From IMG/VR virus record IMGVR_UViG_3300029650_000167: 38,587 nt of DNA; one strand, given 5' to 3'. This DNA is from a virus. Lineage: Duplodnaviria; Heunggongvirae; Uroviricota; Caudoviricetes. The translations under genes and the position numbers were made by a program. The notes beneath the pieces are model-generated. The model was not told where the DNA came from and searched no databases. It saw nothing but the letters and a program-made list of their open reading frames with translations. Below, one piece after another: positions 2,298 through 33,488 of this stretch (its first letter is position 1; every line of letters begins with the position of its first letter).

Positions 2298-4483
2298 GAA
2301 ACTTCCCCATTGGTTGAAAATATGGCTCCTCCAACGCCAAGTGTATTTCGTGTTGTGCTCAACCTCAGAGGGCTGGAGTCAGAATTAGAATATCCTGTAG
2401 CAGAAATAAAAGATCCTCCACTAATAGTCAACTGCGGAACATCGGCTATATCTGAATAAGTTCTGTCAGCAACAGTATTATTTATAGCCACATATGATCC
2501 AAAAAAACTTCTTATTGTTTGGTTTTTAACTTTACTTCCTTCAATGGTTATCCTACTACCACAGTCGGCAATAAATCCTGAATCTGCATCCAGCGTTGCA
2601 TTCATAAAAGAAGCTTCAGATCTCTCTACATCAATCCATCTAATATCTTTTGTGGGATTTGCACCAAATACATGACAAATATTAGAGTTAAACCTTACAC
2701 CATCTTGGAGGTGCATTAATTTTTTTATATCTGTACCCCATAGCCTTGGAAAATTAACAGATGCTCCTGCATGGCAATCAAATCCCAGCTCAGCCCCTGA
2801 GATATCTACAGCCTTTCCTGAAATAACAGCACCAGTGTCTGCATTAACGGCTGTTCCACAATTGCGCATATCATTACCAGCAACATCAACGCAACCCGCA
2901 CCATCAATACGCACACCAAGTGCACATCCATAAAAACCTTTTTCAATATTTGGTTCAAGGACTTTACCACTTGTTTCTGCATCACTTTCTTCAACGTCAT
3001 GTCGTCTTGCATCAACATATGCTGTATGAATGCAGGTTAATCCACGATATGAGCAATGTATAGTTTTATGGTCGCGTATATTAACATTTGAACCATCTCT
3101 TACATTCCATCCTATATAACAATAGCTTGCACTTGACCCCTGAAAATCTGCTTTAACATTATAAATACAATTAACTGACGCAACCGTACTCTCTGTGCAC
3201 CGTTCAAACTTGCTTACAGGCATTGATGCCTTGACATTATTTACCAGTTGCAGGGAAGAGTATCTGCTATAAGAAAAATCACATACGTAATACCCTTCTG
3301 GCATATATGCAGCAACACTTTCCTCATCAGGAGCACATCCGGTATGATATGCACTAATTTTTGCACCAAAACTACCATGAATTCCAACGTAGAACTTTCG
3401 AGCACCTGAATACGGATAGAAATTAAGTTCAGCTTTTTGAGTTACAATAAATGCACAAACATCGCTATCATCTCTATTTTCTTCGATCTGAATAGCAAAT
3501 ACAGGACTTTTTGCTGCATCGCAAATGTAAAATAAATACTTGTATTCGTAATACGTTCTAACGATTTTAGTAAACAAACGAGTGTCAGAGAAAACCACTG
3601 AGTCTTCTGATGTTATTTTAATCCAAGACAAATCAACACCTGAACTGAATTCAATTTGATAGTTGATAATATGCCCGGTCTTAATTCTTATTTCGCAGAA
3701 AGCATTACCACCATCCCACATAGGTCTCATTGACTGGGCTGCAATGATTGCATCTTTGAGTGTAGGGTAATCACCCCATTCGCCAACAGTAATAACAAAA
3801 GTATAATATGAGTTAAAAACAGCGGCATTTTTGCCTTTGGATATCAACTCCTTAATCATAAAAATATTATCTTCGTAATCACAAGGAGAAATTATATCCC
3901 TCATTTTGCTTTGAAATGTTCGTTGTCTTGCCCCGCTTCCTGACGGTATAAACCAACCAAAACCACCAACAACCCCGGCGATTGCAGCATCGACATAATT
4001 ACGCATTGAGCGATTATTTACAGCGTCCTGCTCAAATGATGGATCTGCAAGGTTAGAAATTTTGTTTTGCTTTGCATCGTAATATTTTGCAAGCAAAGAT
4101 GGTTTCATCAATGCACGTCTGAACCACCCAAAACATCGCTGGATCAGCATCGTCAGGTAGTCAAATGCATCTTCATGAACTTCGGGGAAAAATTTTCCCT
4201 GATTGCGAAGATCAGTCTCCTGCACCACATCAAGCACACGCTCTATCGTAATTCGCCAGCCAGCAGCAAGCGGCGACGGGAGAACCACAGAACCGCCACT
4301 ATAAGTGCCCGCCCCAGTTACCGTATAACCGGTATCCAGAACCAATTCTGTTACGTTCCCGTTCAGGTCAGACACCTGAACAACCAGGTCTGATTTTTTG
4401 AAAATACGGAAGGTATACGGAAACGATGTCGTAACGCCGTTACCGGTGTATTCGTTGTGGTCAACTTCGGTTGAGACCGTCAT
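2294..4483 (-). CDS. tailspike / receptor-binding protein with beta-helix-like C-terminal region
   Basis: 729 aa; SD GGAG 8 nt before ATG; N-terminal about 110 aa in typical GC composition, remainder AT-rich with Gly/Asn/Ser/Thr-rich repeats suggesting a beta-helix depolymerase-type domain. Confidence 0.7.
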   Translation of the reverse strand: MTVSTEVDHNEYTGNGVTTSFPYTFRIFKKSDLVVQVSDLNGNVTELVLDTGYTVTGAGTYSGGSVVLPSPLAAGWRITIERVLDVVQETDLRNQGKFFPEVHEDAFDYLTMLIQRCFGWFRRALMKPSLLAKYYDAKQNKISNLADPSFEQDAVNNRSMRNYVDAAIAGVVGGFGWFIPSGSGARQRTFQSKMRDIISPCDYEDNIFMIKELISKGKNAAVFNSYYTFVITVGEWGDYPTLKDAIIAAQSMRPMWDGGNAFCEIRIKTGHIINYQIEFSSGVDLSWIKITSEDSVVFSDTRLFTKIVRTYYEYKYLFYICDAAKSPVFAIQIEENRDDSDVCAFIVTQKAELNFYPYSGARKFYVGIHGSFGAKISAYHTGCAPDEESVAAYMPEGYYVCDFSYSRYSSLQLVNNVKASMPVSKFERCTESTVASVNCIYNVKADFQGSSASYCYIGWNVRDGSNVNIRDHKTIHCSYRGLTCIHTAYVDARRHDVEESDAETSGKVLEPNIEKGFYGCALGVRIDGAGCVDVAGNDMRNCGTAVNADTGAVISGKAVDISGAELGFDCHAGASVNFPRLWGTDIKKLMHLQDGVRFNSNICHVFGANPTKDIRWIDVERSEASFMNATLDADSGFIADCGSRITIEGSKVKNQTIRSFFGSYVAINNTVADRTYSDIADVPQLTISGGSFISATGYSNSDSSPLRLSTTRNTLGVGGAIFSTNGEVS

Positions 4484-30572: not shown

Positions 30573-31373
30573 TTACTTGATAAATCCTGCCGCCTTTCCC
30601 CGCCTGTATTCCTCCATCAGCCACTGCGCCGGTGTTATTCCCCCAAGGGTGGCGGCGTTAGGCATGCACCCGAAACTTCGCCCTGGTGGATGGTAAACGT
30701 CTCTCCCTGTGTCCGGAGGCGTACTCATGGGCTCTGGCTTTGCCTGTATGCTGATCACCGGATCGGGTATCTGCTGTCCGGAAGCCACCTTTTTCGCCCA
30801 ATCATCGAGCAGCCTGCGTGCGTGTTTCTCAACCTCAATCTCGCTAAGCTGGCGCTGATACATTGCACGGCGGGTATCACATACGACCCAGTACATAACC
30901 GGATGTCGCCACGGGAATCTTTCGGGACCACCAGGATATAAACTTTTTTCCTTGCTGTACCGGTGAAACTCCGCCATCACATCGTCAATGGTGACGCCAA
31001 GAACCATCTTGCTGTCTTTGCACCACTTGATAAATTGCCCTGGAGACGGCCAGAACGGAGATTCACTGGCGCGGGCGTGGCGCATACCAGCAGAAACCTG
31101 TTCACGGGTTCGGATCCCCCCTTCGGCAAACGCAGCAATCCACTGCTGTTTTGCAGCAACTTCCTGCTCTGGCGTCTTCAGGTTGGTTACCACTGCCGCC
31201 GGAAACAGTTGTTTCAGCTGTTTAAAAAGGGCATCAACAAGCCTCTCTGCTGACATGTTCACCACATTGTCATTGTTGACGTACTGATGCTCATAACCTG
31301 ACATGCGAGAAAGGGCTTCTCCGTCACGGTTTTGTATCGCGGTAAAAACGTTGTTCACAAGAAATCCTCCCAT
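30573..31373 (-). CDS. replication protein P-like (helicase loader)
   Basis: 266 aa; QWIAAFAEGGIRTREQVSAGMRHARASESPFWPSPGQFIKWCKD aligns with lambda P QWVLAFRENGITTMEQVNAGMRVARRQNRPFLPSPGQFVAWCRE (recalled). Confidence 0.75.
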   Translation of the reverse strand: MGGFLVNNVFTAIQNRDGEALSRMSGYEHQYVNNDNVVNMSAERLVDALFKQLKQLFPAAVVTNLKTPEQEVAAKQQWIAAFAEGGIRTREQVSAGMRHARASESPFWPSPGQFIKWCKDSKMVLGVTIDDVMAEFHRYSKEKSLYPGGPERFPWRHPVMYWVVCDTRRAMYQRQLSEIEVEKHARRLLDDWAKKVASGQQIPDPVISIQAKPEPMSTPPDTGRDVYHPPGRSFGCMPNAATLGGITPAQWLMEEYRRGKAAGFIK

Positions 31374-32152
31374 GCTTCAGGGCTGTTCCAGTGCGGAACG
31401 TTGTTATCAGGTAATGTTGATTGCTTCTGTCTGCTAATCTGCAGCCGCCTTGCCAGCTTCTGCTCCCACTGTGCCTGATGGTATGCCTTACCCTCAGCCA
31501 TCCAGTAAATTCTGAACTCTGCAAGTTCCTGTGCCGTTGGCAGACTGTCCAGGTAGATCCCCTGCAATGAGCTTTTCCGAAGAAAGTCATCTGATGGCTG
31601 CCATTGTTCATGCATGACAAATTTGCCTAATTGCCCTGGCCCACCAGGAGGAACAAAGTTATTCATCACGGCGTTGTTTGCTCCGGGGTCATGAGGCACA
31701 GAATCCCCGCTTTTTGTCCTGCTCTCCCTCTCTTGGTTAAATGACTGGTTATATGACTGGTTCTGGATCCCGTTTTTGGGATCATTCAACATCCCGTTTT
31801 TGGGATCATTCAACATCCCGTTTTTGGGTATATTCCCGTTTTCGGGTTCATTGCCCCCCTCCCGGTTGCCTTTAATGTTCCCGTTTTTGGTTATATTAAG
31901 AGAGAAAACCCGCACTCTTTTTGTCGCTCCCTTTCTCTCTCCGGTATCTGAAATAAGCCCCATTTTCATGAGCGATATAAGCCCGGCCTGCACGGTTTTT
32001 TTATTCAGGCAAGTGTCTTTAACGAGGCGTTCTATGCTGGGGTAGCAGAGGTTATATTCATCGGCTCTGTCAGCCATCGAGAGCAGTATGAGCTTTAATG
32101 ATGAGCTACCTGGATCTGTCTCCCAGGCCCAATCTGTTGCATGTCTGCTCAT
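31355..32152 (-). CDS. replication initiator (O-like) with N-terminal winged-HTH and internal origin repeats
   Basis: 265 aa; N-terminal DWAWE...LKLILLSMADRADE...CYPSIERL HTH; central repeats PKNGMLNDPKNG encoded by iterons; SD GGAG. Confidence 0.7.
   Translation of the reverse strand: MSRHATDWAWETDPGSSSLKLILLSMADRADEYNLCYPSIERLVKDTCLNKKTVQAGLISLMKMGLISDTGERKGATKRVRVFSLNITKNGNIKGNREGGNEPENGNIPKNGMLNDPKNGMLNDPKNGIQNQSYNQSFNQERESRTKSGDSVPHDPGANNAVMNNFVPPGGPGQLGKFVMHEQWQPSDDFLRKSSLQGIYLDSLPTAQELAEFRIYWMAEGKAYHQAQWEQKLARRLQISRQKQSTLPDNNVPHWNSPEAWEDFL
31768..31890. repeat. origin iterons, five copies of TCCCGTTTTTGGG-like repeat
   Basis: Copies at 31768, 31792, 31816 (24-bp period), 31834 and 31879; each is an imperfect inverted repeat; located inside the O-like gene. 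Confidence 0.65.
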
Positions 32153-32167
32153 GATTAATCTCCGCTA

Positions 32168-32368
32168 TCAGCTTGAATGTTGTGGGGAGGAATTAATCAT
32201 GATCTGCTTAATCTCTGCCCTGATACGACGGTTTGATTCCATGGTGCACTCAACACAGTGTCCGTTGTAAACCCAGCGTTCACTGTCATGTCCGTGCTTA
32301 CATGTTTTTCCGGTGTAGTAGCGTTTAAGTCCGCGCTTTGCGGCATCAATACGTGTAATGATTTCCAT
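32168..32368 (-). CDS. small zinc-finger protein
   Basis: About 66 aa from ATG 32368; CKHGH...HCVEC metal-binding pattern; occupies the cII-equivalent position. Confidence 0.35.
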   Translation of the reverse strand: MEIITRIDAAKRGLKRYYTGKTCKHGHDSERWVYNGHCVECTMESNRRIRAEIKQIMINSSPQHSS

Positions 32369-32448
32369 GGTAAGCCCTGTTATTAGTATTAGGATTACGG
32401 TTATTTTGTGCTGACACAAAAAAAAGATCAACCATATTTGGTTTTTTA

Positions 32449-32463
32449 TTACCTTTGAGGTAC
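32449..32463. promoter_or_regulatory. operator-like palindrome (imperfect) TTACC-TTTGA-GGTAC
   Basis: 9 of 10 match; between the cro-side terminator and the zinc-finger/O/P genes. Confidence 0.4.
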
Positions 32464-32470
32464 GAATAGA

Positions 32471-32497
32471 TATGAAAAGACCGCCGGATGGCGGTCT
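32471..32497 (-). terminator. rho-independent terminator downstream of cro-like gene (tR1-like)
   Basis: On the minus strand AGACCGCC-ATCC-GGCGGTCT followed by TTTTCAT. Confidence 0.55.
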
Positions 32498-32518
32498 ACA
32501 GAGGGTTGTGGCTGGATA

Positions 32519-32749
32519 TCATGAGTAGAAGAAGTATGCCAGTTCTGCTTTTGAGCGCAGCCATTGTCTTGATTTACAGGCTTTAAAAAGCCCATCCATC
32601 AATACCTTACCTGGCATTTTGCGCTTACCTGTTAAGTGAGTCTGGATATAGTGACTCGTCGTTCCGGCTTCCTGTGCGAAGGCTTCACGCTCATCCGGAG
32701 TAAGTGCAAGCCAGTGCTTTTTGAAATCGAAATGTCCGTTATCGCTCAT
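32519..32749 (-). CDS. Cro-like HTH regulator
   Basis: 76 aa, divergent from the repressor gene; HTH-like stretch EAFAQEAGTTSHYIQTHLTG. Confidence 0.5.
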   Translation of the reverse strand: MSDNGHFDFKKHWLALTPDEREAFAQEAGTTSHYIQTHLTGKRKMPGKVLMDGLFKACKSRQWLRSKAELAYFFYS

Positions 32750-32785
32750 AGCTATTGCCTGATATTTATTTCAGATAATAAATAT

Positions 32786-32800
32786 TCACCTATAAGGTAA
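32786..32800. promoter_or_regulatory. operator OR-like site A (TCACC-TATAA-GGTAA)
   Basis: 9 of 10 match; in the divergent cro/repressor region, inside the spacer of a minus-strand TTGATT...GAATAT promoter. Confidence 0.5.
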
Positions 32801-32816
32801 CAAAAATCAAGGATAG

Positions 32817-32831
32817 TTACCCACGAGGTGC
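32817..32831. promoter_or_regulatory. operator OR-like site B (TTACC-CACGA-GGTGC, weak)
   Basis: 8 of 10 match, 17 bp from site A and abutting site C. Confidence 0.3.
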
Positions 32832-32833
32832 AT

Positions 32834-32848
32834 TTACCTGTTGGGTAA
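32834..32848. promoter_or_regulatory. operator OR-like site C (TTACC-TGTTG-GGTAA)
   Basis: Perfect motif about 55 bp upstream of the repressor start. Confidence 0.55.
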
Positions 32849-32903
32849 TATTGCTTTAAATTGAATCATCTTCTGATTCAGATATGAGGCGATTTTCCAG
32901 AAA

Positions 32904-33488
32904 ATGAAAAGTATCCAGGACGTCCGCAGGCAAAATCTCAACGACTTGATCGACCGTGAATTCAATGGTGTTCAGACGCGGATGGCTGAAAAACTTGGAA
33001 CTCAGGCAAATCTGGTAAACCGCTGGGCTCTTGGCAAGAAGGTTATCGGCGACCAGGTTGCACGAAAAATTGAAGCTGCCGCCAATAAACCCCGTAACTG
33101 GCTTGATATCGATCGCTCGCTTTCTCAGGAAGGTTTTCAGCCTGTCGGCCCAAGCGACATTGGCCAGCTGGCGGCTCACAACCTGGAACGCTGGATGAGC
33201 GAAAGCCGCGACCTTTCAACACAGGGAAAACTTCACCGCGCATCCGGCGTAGCCCAGGTGACAATCAGCCGCCTGTTAAACAATGAGGTCAGCGTTTCCA
33301 TTTCCACCCTGGAGAATGTTGCATCCGCATTCGGGCGTCACGGCTATGAATTACTGATTCACCCGCACGACCCTGCGACCATCAACTATGATCGCTCGCG
33401 CTACGCATTGTTACCCGAAACCGAGAAAGCAAAGATCGAAAGTTACATTGAATTTGTCATCAACCAGAACGAAAAAAACAAACAATAA
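32904..33488 (+). CDS. prophage repressor with tandem XRE-type HTH domains, no peptidase domain
   Basis: 194 aa; two HTH-like segments (TRMAEKLGTQANLVNRWALGKK and ASGVAQVTISRLLNNEVSVSISTLENVA); no Ser/Lys S24 autocleavage motif; divergent from cro-like gene. Confidence 0.7.
   Translation: MKSIQDVRRQNLNDLIDREFNGVQTRMAEKLGTQANLVNRWALGKKVIGDQVARKIEAAANKPRNWLDIDRSLSQEGFQPVGPSDIGQLAAHNLERWMSESRDLSTQGKLHRASGVAQVTISRLLNNEVSVSISTLENVASAFGRHGYELLIHPHDPATINYDRSRYALLPETEKAKIESYIEFVINQNEKNKQ

What the first reader, a model, noticed from the sequence alone, without database searches (positions are those of the whole stretch)
31768..31890. Replication origin embedded in the O-like initiator gene
Five copies of TCCCGTTTTTGGG-like iterons, three at an exact 24-bp period, lie inside the coding sequence of the O-like protein, where they encode the repeated peptide PKNGMLNDPKNG. 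This is the classical lambda ori-in-O arrangement. The iteron sequence and spacing differ from lambda's 18-bp repeats as I recall them, so the initiator specificity is probably distinct.
Basis: partly seen in the sequence, partly recalled or inferred. Interest (0 to 1): 0.35.

Follow-up and report, generated by a model that had tools for sequence, protein, structure and literature searches.

The report
Iteron replication origin inside phage initiator gene
A phiV10-like E. coli phage carries five repeated binding-site-like DNA motifs inside its own replication-initiator gene, which is very probably its replication origin built on the same plan as phage lambda's but using a different initiator protein; this is an ordinary, though previously unannotated, example of a textbook arrangement.

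Summary
Five TCCCGTTTTTGGG-type repeats lie at 31768-31891, three of them at an exact 24-bp period. They sit inside the minus-strand initiator gene (31355-32152) and encode PKNGMLNDPKNG.

The DNA is what is conserved, not the peptide:
- Homologous initiators from over 20 bacterial genera and several phages carry the same CCC(A/G)AAAACGG(G) core just after the N-terminal HTH domain.
- The spacing is often 17 bp, so the core falls in all three reading frames.
- The core uses rare CCC and GGG codons.

Relatives that swapped the N-terminal domain lack the motif. Edwardsiella phage GF-2 joins this N-domain and iteron cassette to a genuine lambda-O C-terminal domain and lambda ori-right DNA. The cassette therefore occupies lambda's iteron slot.

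The initiator is not a lambda-O family member. It combines an HTH_36 domain with a DnaT-like ssDNA-binding domain, and a lambda-P-type loader gene follows it. The adjacent A-rich flank is much less AT-rich than lambda's.

No record or searchable paper annotates this origin. Verdict: a new member of a known kind, of modest interest. Origin function is inferred, not demonstrated.

The parts
31767..31891 (.). Iteron array. It holds five 13-16-bp units with + strand cores at 31768-31780, 31792-31804, 31816-31828, 31834-31846 and 31879-31891. The coding-strand consensus is ATCCCAAAAACGGGAT, and all units point the same way.
   Evidence: Searches give the repeats and their uniqueness in the window. 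Searches show the same core in homologues in all three frames. One search shows a 5-9 copy range in 78 related contigs.
31727..31766 (.). Flank immediately downstream of the last iteron in the coding direction. The coding strand is A-rich, and the flank includes the 12-bp tandem AACCAGTCATWT (31734-31762). It is the candidate DNA-unwinding element.
   Evidence: Searches show the 12-bp repeat. In one search, 31727-31766 is 57.5% AT with A 0.40 and T 0.175 on the coding strand. In one search, the 40 nt after the last iteron are 60% AT against 52% for the gene. In phiV10, which has 3 copies, this is the least stable 30-mer of the gene. The signal is weaker than in lambda (78% AT), so this assignment is inferred.
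31355..32152 (-). Replication initiator gene (265 aa). It encodes an N-terminal HTH_36 winged-helix-type domain (aa 18-67, nt 32101-31952), a low-complexity linker that carries the iterons (aa ~88-128), and a DnaT-like C-terminal domain (aa 174-259, nt 31633-31376).
   Evidence: One search gives Pfam HTH_36 at 1.7e-10 and DnaT at 1.1e-15. One search gives PHROG 1032 'replication initiation protein' at 1.4e-106. One search matches E. coli DnaT C-terminal domain structures at E=6e-21.
30573..31373 (-). Lambda-P-type helicase loader gene. It overlaps the end of the initiator gene. phiV10 annotates a GTG start 15 nt further in, overlapping the initiator's TGA.
   Evidence: One search gives PF06992 at 1.5e-56. 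One search gives phrog_109 'P-like helicase loader'. One search gives the phiV10 annotation.
32149..32202 (-). RNA hairpin whose 3' arm contains the Shine-Dalgarno sequence (GGAG) and the AUG of the initiator. The stop codon of the upstream small ORF (32168-32170) lies in the loop. It is a probable translational-coupling element.
   Evidence: One search reports an 11-nt perfect inverted repeat. One search gives an RNA fold of -15.5 kcal/mol with z = -2.77.
32168..32431 (-). Small ORF upstream of the initiator. It is an epsilon15 gp40-like hypothetical protein, annotated as 66 aa in phiV10.
   Evidence: (phrog_1081).
32478..32803 (-). Early leftward control region. It holds a promoter-like site (32803-32775), a cro-like gene (32749-32519) and an intrinsic terminator (32497-32478). 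Transcription from here would run through the initiator gene and the iterons.
   Evidence: One search gives the consensus scans. One search gives phrog_35. One search shows the terminator annotated in phiV10. A role in origin activation is inferred from the lambda precedent only.

Best explanation
The array is the iteron part of the phage's replication origin, embedded in the linker-coding middle of the initiator gene.

Proposed mechanism:
1. The early leftward operon expresses the initiator and the P-type loader. Initiator translation is probably coupled to the upstream small ORF.
2. The N-terminal winged-helix (HTH_36) domain of the initiator binds each dyad-symmetric iteron (ATCCC-A5C-GGGAT), probably as a dimer. 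Five directly repeated, A-tract-containing sites assemble a bent multi-protomer complex analogous to lambda's O-some.
3. This stresses and opens the neighbouring A-rich flank (about 31727-31766).
4. The clustered DnaT-like C-terminal domains bind the exposed single strand, as E. coli DnaT's C-terminal domain does by forming filaments on ssDNA.
5. The lambda-P-type loader then delivers host DnaB there.

Shown: the repeats, their uniqueness, their position between the two domains, DNA-level conservation across genera, co-occurrence with the N-domain, equivalence of position with lambda's iterons, and conservation of DnaT's ssDNA-binding residues.

Inferred: binding, bending, the site of opening, the role of the C-terminal domain, and origin activity itself.
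For: 1. Non-random array. There are five copies in 124 bp and none elsewhere in 38.6 kb (expected 0.88 for the whole window). TRF gives a perfect 24-bp array.

2. Position. The repeats cover aa 88-128, between HTH_36 (aa 18-67) and the DnaT-like domain (aa 174-259). A lambda-P family gene lies directly downstream.

3. DNA rather than peptide is conserved.
- The CCC-N6-GG core occurs in frames 0, 1 and 2 in GF-2, Vibrio H8, PPompW and Bcep176.
- It occurs at 17-bp spacing in Vibrio salinus, Desulfovibrio and a Desulfovibrionaceae MAG.
- In the window, all 4 Pro codons of the array are CCC (9.3% of Pro codons elsewhere). All 5 core Gly codons are GGG (16.3% elsewhere).

4. Association with the N-domain.
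- In 17 of 22 species-representative genomes encoding the domain (46-87% identity), the core clusters at gene nt 240-560. Its density there is 12.8 per kb against 0.66 per kb elsewhere in the same loci.
- The five exceptions have the most diverged N-domains. At least three of them carry a different repeated word in the same zone.
- Uetakeviruses with the same C-terminal domain and P gene but another N-domain (Tyrion, TL-2011b, ZX5, Klebsiella phages) lack the motif.

5. Dyad arms co-vary between lineages: ATCCC/GGGAT, ACCC/GGGT and CCCCC/GGGGG.

6. Natural swap. GF-2's initiator is 54% identical to the window protein over aa 1-128, iteron linker included. It is 62% identical to lambda O residues 156-299 over its aa 137-280. 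Its DNA after the iterons aligns with lambda's AT-rich region and palindrome.

7. Population behaviour. In 78 related contigs the array changes only by whole 18- or 24-bp units, ranges from 5 to 9 copies, and never falls below 5.

8. DnaT's six mutationally defined ssDNA-binding residues (PMC4132743) map to Y216, W217, K222, Y224, K232 and R235. Five are identical and one is F-to-Y. Five of these positions (Y216, W217, K222, K232, R235) are unchanged in all seven phage initiators in alignment A1 that carry one of the three N-domain types other than Tyrion's; the Tyrion-type pair has N at K222.

9. As in lambda, the 40 nt after the last iteron are A-rich on the coding strand in the window and in 5 of 6 homologues.
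Against: - There is no experimental evidence of binding or of origin activity for this or any homologous cassette in the searchable literature.
- The flank is only 58-60% AT, against 78% in lambda. In the window it is not the least stable segment of the gene, so a clear unwinding element is missing.
- The initiator has no detectable pairwise similarity to lambda O. The analogy therefore rests on architecture, on shared weak PHROG profile hits and on the GF-2 chimera.
- The three perfect 24-bp copies are recent duplicates, so the within-window codon statistics overstate independence.
- The cumulative GC-skew minimum near 31-33 kb coincides with the switch in gene orientation and cannot be counted as support.
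Confidence: 0.75

Rival explanations
1. The repeats are initiator-binding sites, but they serve regulation rather than origin firing. Candidate roles are autoregulation or a roadblock to transcription of the initiator-P operon, or copy-number control by handcuffing. The true origin would lie elsewhere.
For: The DNA-level conservation and the association with the N-domain only demonstrate a cis-acting site for that domain, not unwinding. The adjacent flank is a weak AT-rich element. The sites lie inside the operon that they could regulate.
Against: No other copy of the motif exists anywhere in the window that could serve as the 'real' origin. In GF-2 the same cassette abuts DNA that aligns with lambda's AT-rich region and ori-right palindrome. 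The position and orientation match lambda's functional iterons. Iterons in known systems usually do both jobs, so this reading is a partial rival rather than an exclusive one.
Confidence: 0.12
2. The repeats are a peptide feature. A low-complexity PKNG-type flexible linker expanded by replication slippage, and the DNA motif has no function of its own.
For: In the window and its close relatives, every spacing is a multiple of 3 and the array changes by in-frame units. The encoded segment is N/G/P/K-rich, like many linkers.
Against: In homologues the same DNA core is read in all three frames and encodes unrelated peptides such as PKNG, TQKR, SQNR and DPKT. The synonymous third positions of CCC and GGG are fixed despite being rare codons. 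The dyad symmetry of the arms is maintained and co-varies between lineages. The motif disappears when the N-domain is swapped, although a linker is still present.
Confidence: 0.04
3. The array is mainly a recombination or module junction, a hotspot where N- and C-terminal initiator modules are exchanged between phages. On this reading it is a by-product of mosaicism and not a functional site.
For: The domain boundary of the mosaics lies at or near the array. Examples are window versus GF-2 versus lambda, and window versus Tyrion or TL-2011b. Unit-number changes by unequal crossing-over are frequent. At least one public assembly, O157 typing phage 9, appears to break there.
Against: A junction alone does not explain conservation of one specific 12-bp core across Gammaproteobacteria and Desulfovibrio together with the N-domain. 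It also does not explain the minimum of 5 copies. In lambdoid phages, the origin lying at a module boundary is the known situation and is compatible with the main explanation.
Confidence: 0.05

Closest known systems
Phage lambda ori (four iterons inside gene O, AT-rich region, O and P proteins)
   Same: Both have direct repeats with internal dyad symmetry and an A-tract, inside the initiator gene between its two domains. In both, the flank after the repeats is A-rich on the coding strand and a P-family loader gene comes next. The iterons share the ATCCC...AAAAC...GGGA pattern.
   Different: The arms here are 3 bp closer together (CCC-to-GGG span 12 bp against 15 bp). The spacing is 24/24/18/45 against 20/24/23. 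The initiator does not match Pfam Phage_rep_O and has no BLASTP similarity to O. Its C-terminal domain is DnaT-like, and hhalign gives no relation to the O C-terminal domain. The flank is 58-60% AT against 78%, and there is no clear ori-right palindrome.
Stx-phage origins (933W, P27) with six lambda-type iterons (PMC7466680)
   Same: The iteron number varies between related phages, and extra copies sit distal to the AT-rich side. The overall arrangement is the same.
   Different: Those phages use true lambda-O proteins and lambda-type iterons. In that work, binding and the requirement for the extra iterons were shown experimentally. Nothing has been shown experimentally here.
Edwardsiella phage GF-2 type initiators (PHROG 391, 'replication initiation O-like')
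   Same: They have the same N-terminal domain (54% identity) and the same iteron family (ATCCCAAAATTGGGAT, 24-bp period) at the same place.
   Different: GF-2's C-terminal half is a lambda-O C-terminal domain (62% identity to lambda O). Its post-iteron DNA resembles lambda ori-right. The window has a DnaT-like domain instead.
E. coli DnaT (primosomal protein I), C-terminal ssDNA-binding domain
   Same: Residues 174-259 align without gaps to DnaT 85-170 (E=6e-21). Five of the six ssDNA-binding residues are identical and one is conservative.
   Different: DnaT has its own N-terminal oligomerisation domain and is recruited by PriA/PriB to abandoned forks (PMC13377028). Here the domain is fused to a sequence-specific origin-binding domain, and the protein falls far below the NCBIfam DnaT equivalog cut-off (85 against 201 bits).
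Iteron plasmid origins (RK2 TrfA, pPS10 RepA and similar), where Rep binds dsDNA iterons and ssDNA of the DUE
   Same: The logic is the same. Winged-helix initiators sit on directly repeated sites next to an unwinding element, and the same protein contacts ssDNA (abstracts of PMC4081077 and PMC10602881, listed).
   Different: Plasmid iterons are intergenic, and their Rep proteins belong to other families (no Rep_3 or RepA hit). No DnaA boxes or plasmid-type control elements were looked for or seen here.

Membership tests
Lambda-type phage origin (ori embedded in the initiator gene of an initiator/P-loader module) | Four or more directly repeated sites with internal dyad symmetry inside the initiator ORF | tested here: met
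   There are five copies with ATCCC/GGGAT arms.
Lambda-type phage origin (ori embedded in the initiator gene of an initiator/P-loader module) | Repeats lie in the linker between the DNA-binding N-domain and the C-terminal domain | tested here: met
   The repeats cover aa 88-128, between HTH_36 (18-67) and the DnaT-like domain (174-259).
Lambda-type phage origin (ori embedded in the initiator gene of an initiator/P-loader module) | Pronounced AT-rich unwinding region directly after the last iteron | tested here: inconclusive
   The 40 nt after the last iteron are 60% AT with A 0.40 and T 0.20 on the coding strand. Lambda has 78% AT. This is the least stable 30-mer of the gene in phiV10 but not in the window.
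Lambda-type phage origin (ori embedded in the initiator gene of an initiator/P-loader module) | P-family helicase loader gene immediately downstream of the initiator | tested here: met
   PF06992 at 1.5e-56, with overlapping genes.
Lambda-type phage origin (ori embedded in the initiator gene of an initiator/P-loader module) | The initiator binds the repeats, and the segment supports initiator-dependent replication | not testable with these tools
   Only indirect evidence exists: motif and N-domain co-occurrence and co-variation, and positional equivalence in GF-2.
Lambda O protein family (Pfam PF04492 Phage_rep_O) | Match to the Phage_rep_O model above its gathering score | tested here: not met
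   There is no hit at E<=0.01. Lambda O itself scores 5.7e-36 in the same scan.
Lambda O protein family (Pfam PF04492 Phage_rep_O) | Sequence similarity to lambda O, N- or C-terminal | tested here: not met
   The best BLASTP E-value is 0.07 over 17 aa. hhalign of the C-terminal domains gives probability 0.14%. The only link is a shared match of both N-domains to phrog_678 and phrog_345.
DnaT (primosomal protein I) | C-terminal three-helix ssDNA-binding domain with its key residues | tested here: met
   Pfam DnaT at 1.1e-15. PDB DnaT chains at E=6e-21. Y, W, K, K and R are conserved and F becomes Y.
DnaT (primosomal protein I) | Full-length equivalence, including the DnaT N-terminal domain | tested here: not met
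   NCBIfam NF002770 scores 85 bits against a cut-off of 201, and only residues 175-258 match. The N-terminus is HTH_36 instead.
HTH_36-type phage replication initiators (PHROG 1032 and relatives) | Full-length match to the family profile | tested here: met
   phrog_1032 at 1.4e-106 over residues 1-263. HTH_36 at 1.7e-10.
CCC(A/G)AAAACGG iteron cassette (defined here) | Three or more copies of the core, same orientation, within about 240-560 nt of the start of a gene encoding the homologous N-domain | tested here: met
   This holds for the window, for GF-2, Vibrio H8, PPompW and Acb75, and for 16-17 of 22 species-representative genomes.

The most novel reading that the evidence does not exclude
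The initiator is a natural fusion of an origin-specific iteron-binding domain to the ssDNA-filament-forming domain of the replication-restart protein DnaT. Origin opening and helicase hand-off in these phages would then work by a restart-primosome-like step. Clustered DnaT-type domains would coat the melted strand and present it to the P-DnaB complex, in place of the protein-protein O-P contact known from lambda. If this is right, these phage proteins would be a simple, origin-addressable system for working out what the DnaT C-terminal domain does in helicase loading. The 2026 preprimosome structure paper lists that question as still unknown. The phages would also show that origin firing and fork restart share an exchangeable module.
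Probability: 0.3. Interest if true: 0.55.

Novelty: new member of a known kind. Interest (0 to 1): 0.3.

Why it matters
- It supplies a missing annotation, the probable origin, for phiV10/Uetakevirus-type phages. These are used as O157 reporter and typing phages. The same module sits in prophages of about 8% of complete E. coli genomes, where the gene is currently labelled only 'DnaT-like ssDNA-binding domain-containing protein'.
- It defines a widespread N-domain and iteron cassette (core CCC(A/G)AAAACGG) that is combined with different C-terminal partners: DnaT-like, lambda-O-like and others. This helps predict origins and replication incompatibility or specificity in prophages.
- It warns engineers that recoding or truncating this gene will also hit a cis-acting site.
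- It also flags the DnaT-like domain fusion as a tractable handle on DnaT function.

Tried and rejected
1. Homology between the DnaT-like C-terminal domain and the lambda-O C-terminal domain, suggested by a similar '...L(Q/E)I.R' ending and the shared slot next to P. hhalign of small alignments gave probability 0.14%, so I rejected it on present evidence.

2. A strong AT-rich unwinding element. Nearest-neighbour stability and AT content show only a mild signal. I kept it as a candidate only.

3. GC skew as independent origin evidence. The cumulative minimum lies at 31-33 kb but coincides with the divergent early promoters and the change of gene orientation, so it is uninformative.

4. The 'terminator-like' hits on the + strand inside the array (31777-31796, 31801-31820). 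These are just the GGGAT/ATCCC arms of neighbouring iterons followed by the T-run, antisense to the gene. I did not treat them as terminators.

5. Iterons of their own in the swapped-initiator relatives (Tyrion, Klebsiella phages, TL-2011b, ZX5). Only short or weak repeats were found (GGATCAG x3; GTAACG words), so this is inconclusive.

6. Literature searches for phiV10 or epsilon15 origins, for iterons with DnaT-like phage initiators, and for the iteron sequence itself found nothing relevant. The epsilon15 genome paper is not held. Weigel & Seitz 2006 and the phiV10 genome paper could not be checked, so a prior description there cannot be excluded.

A three-sequence alignment worked.

8. The first viral-contig scan returned only near-identical E. 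coli-type loci. I used it as a population sample instead of a diversity sample.

9. I did not run structure prediction. It would not change the verdict, and a usable alignment would have required an expensive database search.
Full report
**What the window is**

The 2-kb region around the finding is 96.5-98.5% identical, over its full length, to Escherichia phage phiV10 and to other phiV10-like (mostly Uetakevirus/epsilon15-like) phage records. The initiator gene is 99.9% identical to a prophage gene in E. coli MS 198-1. It occurs in 424 of 5,426 complete E. coli genomes, where PGAP names it 'DnaT-like ssDNA-binding domain-containing protein'. None of the annotated phage records I opened marks an origin or repeat there.

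**The observation**

- TRF finds a perfect 24-bp x 2.6 array at 31767-31828.
- TCCCGTTTTTGGG with up to 2 mismatches occurs five times, at 31768, 31792, 31816, 31834 and 31879. It occurs nowhere else in the window, against 0.88 matches expected for the whole window.
- Spacing is 24, 24, 18 and 45 bp.
- The repeats lie in the minus-strand ORF 31355-32152 and encode ...ITKNGNIKGN...PENGNIPKNGMLNDPKNGMLNDPKNGIQ....
- The full unit on the coding strand is ATCCCAAAAACGGGAT. It has 5-bp inverted arms around an A5C spacer, and all units point the same way.

Only the end coordinate differs, by one base.

**The host gene and its neighbours**

- The 265-aa protein has Pfam HTH_36 at aa 18-67 and the 'DnaT DNA-binding domain' at aa 178-246. 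It does not match Phage_rep_O.
- It is a full-length member of PHROG 1032, 'replication initiation protein'.
- It is well below the NCBIfam DnaT equivalog cut-off.
- Residues 174-259 align without gaps to E. coli DnaT 85-170 (E=6e-21; PDB 9zbt, 4ou6 and others).
- The next gene (30573-31373) is a lambda-P family helicase loader.
- Upstream on the same strand lie a small ORF, an intrinsic terminator, a cro-like gene and a promoter-like site. A divergent repressor gene lies at 32904-33488.

The layout is therefore lambda-like: repressor / cro-like / ... / initiator / loader. The iterons (aa 88-128) fall exactly in the linker between the two domains of the initiator.

**Is the DNA or the peptide under selection?**

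This is the key question, and four results answer it.

1. tblastn with the N-terminal 96 aa finds 123 phage records. In Edwardsiella GF-2, Vibrio H8, Acinetobacter Acb75, E. coli PPompW and Burkholderia Bcep176, a repeat array sits at the same distance from the start codon. All have a related core: ATCCCAAAATTGGGAT, GCCCGAAAACGGTAC, AACCCAAATTTGGGTC, CACCCAAAAACGGGAG and GTCCCAAAACCGGAAC.

2. The core occurs in all three reading frames, giving PKNG, PKIG, PENG, TQKR, SQNR and DPKT.

3. I examined 22 of the 27 loci returned from one-genome-per-species bacterial assemblies. They span Providencia, Proteus, Vibrio, Pseudoalteromonas, Marinobacterium, Wohlfahrtiimonas, Desulfovibrio and others, at 46-87% N-domain identity.
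   - An unbiased search for the most-repeated 12-mer of each 3-kb locus lands in the post-HTH zone in about 13 of 24 cases, and it is a CCCAAAAACGG-type word.
   - A degenerate core pattern is clustered at gene nt 240-560 in 17 of 22 loci. Its density there is 12.8 per kb against 0.66 per kb elsewhere.
   - Spacings of 17 bp are common there, so the sites rotate through the frames.
   - The five exceptions have the most diverged N-domains. At least three carry another repeated word in the same place.

4. In the window, the array's four Pro codons are all CCC and the five core Gly codons are all GGG. These codons make up 9.3% and 16.3% of Pro and Gly codons in the rest of the window. The three identical 24-bp units are recent duplicates, so the nominal probability is overstated, but the direction is clear.

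The arms also co-vary between lineages while keeping their symmetry: ATCCC/GGGAT, ACCC/GGGT and CCCCC/GGGGG. That pattern is expected for a symmetric dimer site.

**Specificity controls from nature**

Tyrion, two Klebsiella phages, TL-2011b and ZX5 share the DnaT-like C-terminal domain and the P-type gene with the window. They have unrelated N-terminal domains, and none has the motif.

Conversely, GF-2 has the window-type N-domain and iterons (54% identity over aa 1-128). These are fused to a lambda-O C-terminal domain (62% identity to lambda O 156-299). The DNA after GF-2's iterons aligns with lambda's AT-rich region and palindrome: CGTCCGAGAATTCTGACGAATCCTCAGAC against CGTCAGAGAATTCTGGCGAATCCTCTGAC.

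So the cassette studied here sits, in a natural chimera, in exactly the slot that lambda's own N-domain and iterons occupy in a proven origin. This is the strongest argument that the array is an origin component.

**Comparison with lambda itself**

- Lambda's annotated iterons are ATCCCTCAAAACGAGGGA-type 18-mers, spaced 20/24/23 bp at nt 349-433 of gene O. The window's lie at nt 262-386 of its gene.
- The two share ATCCC, AAAAC and GGGA, but the CCC-to-GGG span is 12 bp here against 15 bp in lambda.
- The proteins show no BLASTP similarity. Both N-domains do match phrog_678 and phrog_345, so a remote relationship between the DNA-binding domains is plausible.
- After the last iteron, the coding strand is A-rich in lambda (A 0.65, T 0.12). 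The same holds in the window (0.40/0.20) and in GF-2, Acb75, PPompW and Bcep176.
- AT content is only 60% here against 78% in lambda. Predicted duplex stability is only mildly low.
- The flank contains a 12-bp tandem, AACCAGTCATWT. It has 2 copies here and 3 in phiV10, where it is the least stable 30-mer of the gene.

**Population behaviour**

In 78 IMG/VR contigs with a 99-100% identical N-domain, I found 39 array haplotypes. All differ by whole 18- or 24-bp units. They carry 5-9 iterons, with a mode of 6, and none has fewer than 5.

The window's 5-copy arrangement (45, 18, 24, 24) is the phiV10 arrangement minus one 18-bp unit. Its fourth core (+ strand TCCCGTTTTCGGG at 31834) looks like a recombinant of phiV10's two neighbouring 18-bp-spaced copies.

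**Mechanism**

In the E. coli preprimosome, the DnaT C-terminal domain forms filaments on lagging-strand ssDNA (PMC13377028). The residues shown by mutagenesis to be needed for ssDNA binding are Y127, W128, K133, F135, K143 and R146 (PMC4132743). They correspond to Y216, W217, K222, Y224, K232 and R235 here. Five of these positions (all except Y224) are identical in all the aligned phage initiators except the Tyrion-type pair, which has N at K222.

I therefore propose these steps:
1. The N-domain docks on the iterons.
2. A multi-protomer complex bends and stresses the DNA.
3. The A-rich flank opens.
4. The clustered DnaT-like domains capture the single strand.
5. The P-type loader brings in DnaB.

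Only the sequence-level statements are shown. Binding, opening and loading are inferred from lambda (PMC7466680), from iteron plasmids and from DnaT.

**Rivals**

- A purely regulatory role for the sites cannot be excluded. It is disfavoured by the GF-2 juxtaposition and by the lack of any other motif copy in the genome.
- A peptide-only repeat is essentially excluded by the frame analysis.
- A pure recombination junction does not explain conservation of the core across phyla.

**Prior knowledge**

None of the opened records annotates an origin. Full-text searches for the phage names with origin or iterons, and for the iteron sequence itself, found nothing relevant. The epsilon15 genome paper is not held, and the phiV10 genome paper and the Weigel & Seitz review could not be read. 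The principle of an origin inside the initiator gene is textbook.

**Verdict**

The initiator is not a lambda-O family member, and its C-terminal domain is DnaT-like. This is a new, unannotated member of a known kind of origin, of modest interest. Its most interesting aspect is the fusion to the DnaT domain.

Noticed in passing
window 32149-32202 (minus strand RNA): An 11-nt perfect inverted repeat plus CCUC/GGAG pairing folds into a hairpin (-15.5 kcal/mol, z = -2.77). It sequesters the Shine-Dalgarno sequence and the AUG of the initiator. The stop codon of the upstream small ORF lies in the loop, which suggests translational coupling or limitation of initiator synthesis.
   Followed up: partly
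window 31734-31762: A 12-bp tandem repeat (coding strand AACCAGTCATWT, encoding NQSY/NQSF) lies directly after the last iteron. It has 2 copies here and in nearly all relatives and 3 in phiV10. GF-2 has a similar CAGAATCAGTCAT at the same place.
   Followed up: partly
window 31847-31878: The 45-bp gap between the first and second iteron, in coding order, contains a G-rich stretch (coding strand GGCAACCGGGAGGGGGGCAATGAA). Its length is constant in all 78 related contigs even though the rest of the array varies. Its function is unknown.
   Followed up: no
window 31355-31400; L104-L106: The initiator's C-terminal tail, VPHWNSPEAWEDFL, recurs as WNTPEAWRDFI in Providencia, Proteus and Ignatzschineria initiators that have a different C-terminal domain. 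The codons for this tail also contain the SD (GGGAGGA) and the start of the overlapping P-type gene. The conservation may therefore reflect coupling signals, a P-contact peptide, or both.
   Followed up: no
L004 (TL-2011b) nt 2322-3146; L002 (Tyrion) 3349-4116; L015 (PPompW): Initiators with other N-domains have their own short repeats in the linker: GTAACG words in TL-2011b and ZX5, and GGATCAG x3 in Tyrion and the Klebsiella phages. These are followed by a shared AAAACCCC(W)C(W)C...GCGCGCGA segment that PPompW also has. This may be the equivalent origin region of those modules.
   Followed up: partly
L006 (PP488543.1, Escherichia phage BP9, 133-138 kb): A 138-kb record classified as a lytic Vequintavirus carries the complete phiV10-type immunity and replication module at its end, 98.5% identical to the window. 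This looks like an assembly chimera or prophage contamination. The same may apply to the unannotated 115-kb 'phage PH444'.
   Followed up: no
L010 (KP869107.1, O157 typing phage 9): In this partial genome the initiator gene is split. The C-terminal part is annotated as 'dnaT primosomal protein 1' at about 38.8-39.3 kb, and the N-terminal 96 aa lie at 267-554 on the other strand. The assembly apparently broke or rearranged at or near the iteron array.
   Followed up: no
L013 (Vibrio phage H8, 1501-1968) and L113: In some relatives the gene ends right after the iterons. The protein is 149-155 aa with an N-domain only, so the array lies at the 3' end of a short HTH gene with no fused C-terminal domain. 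The partner function may be encoded separately.
   Followed up: no
window 31001-33000: The cumulative GC-skew minimum of the whole window falls here. It coincides with the divergent early promoters, where minus-strand genes on the left meet plus-strand genes on the right, so it cannot be attributed to replication.
   Followed up: yes
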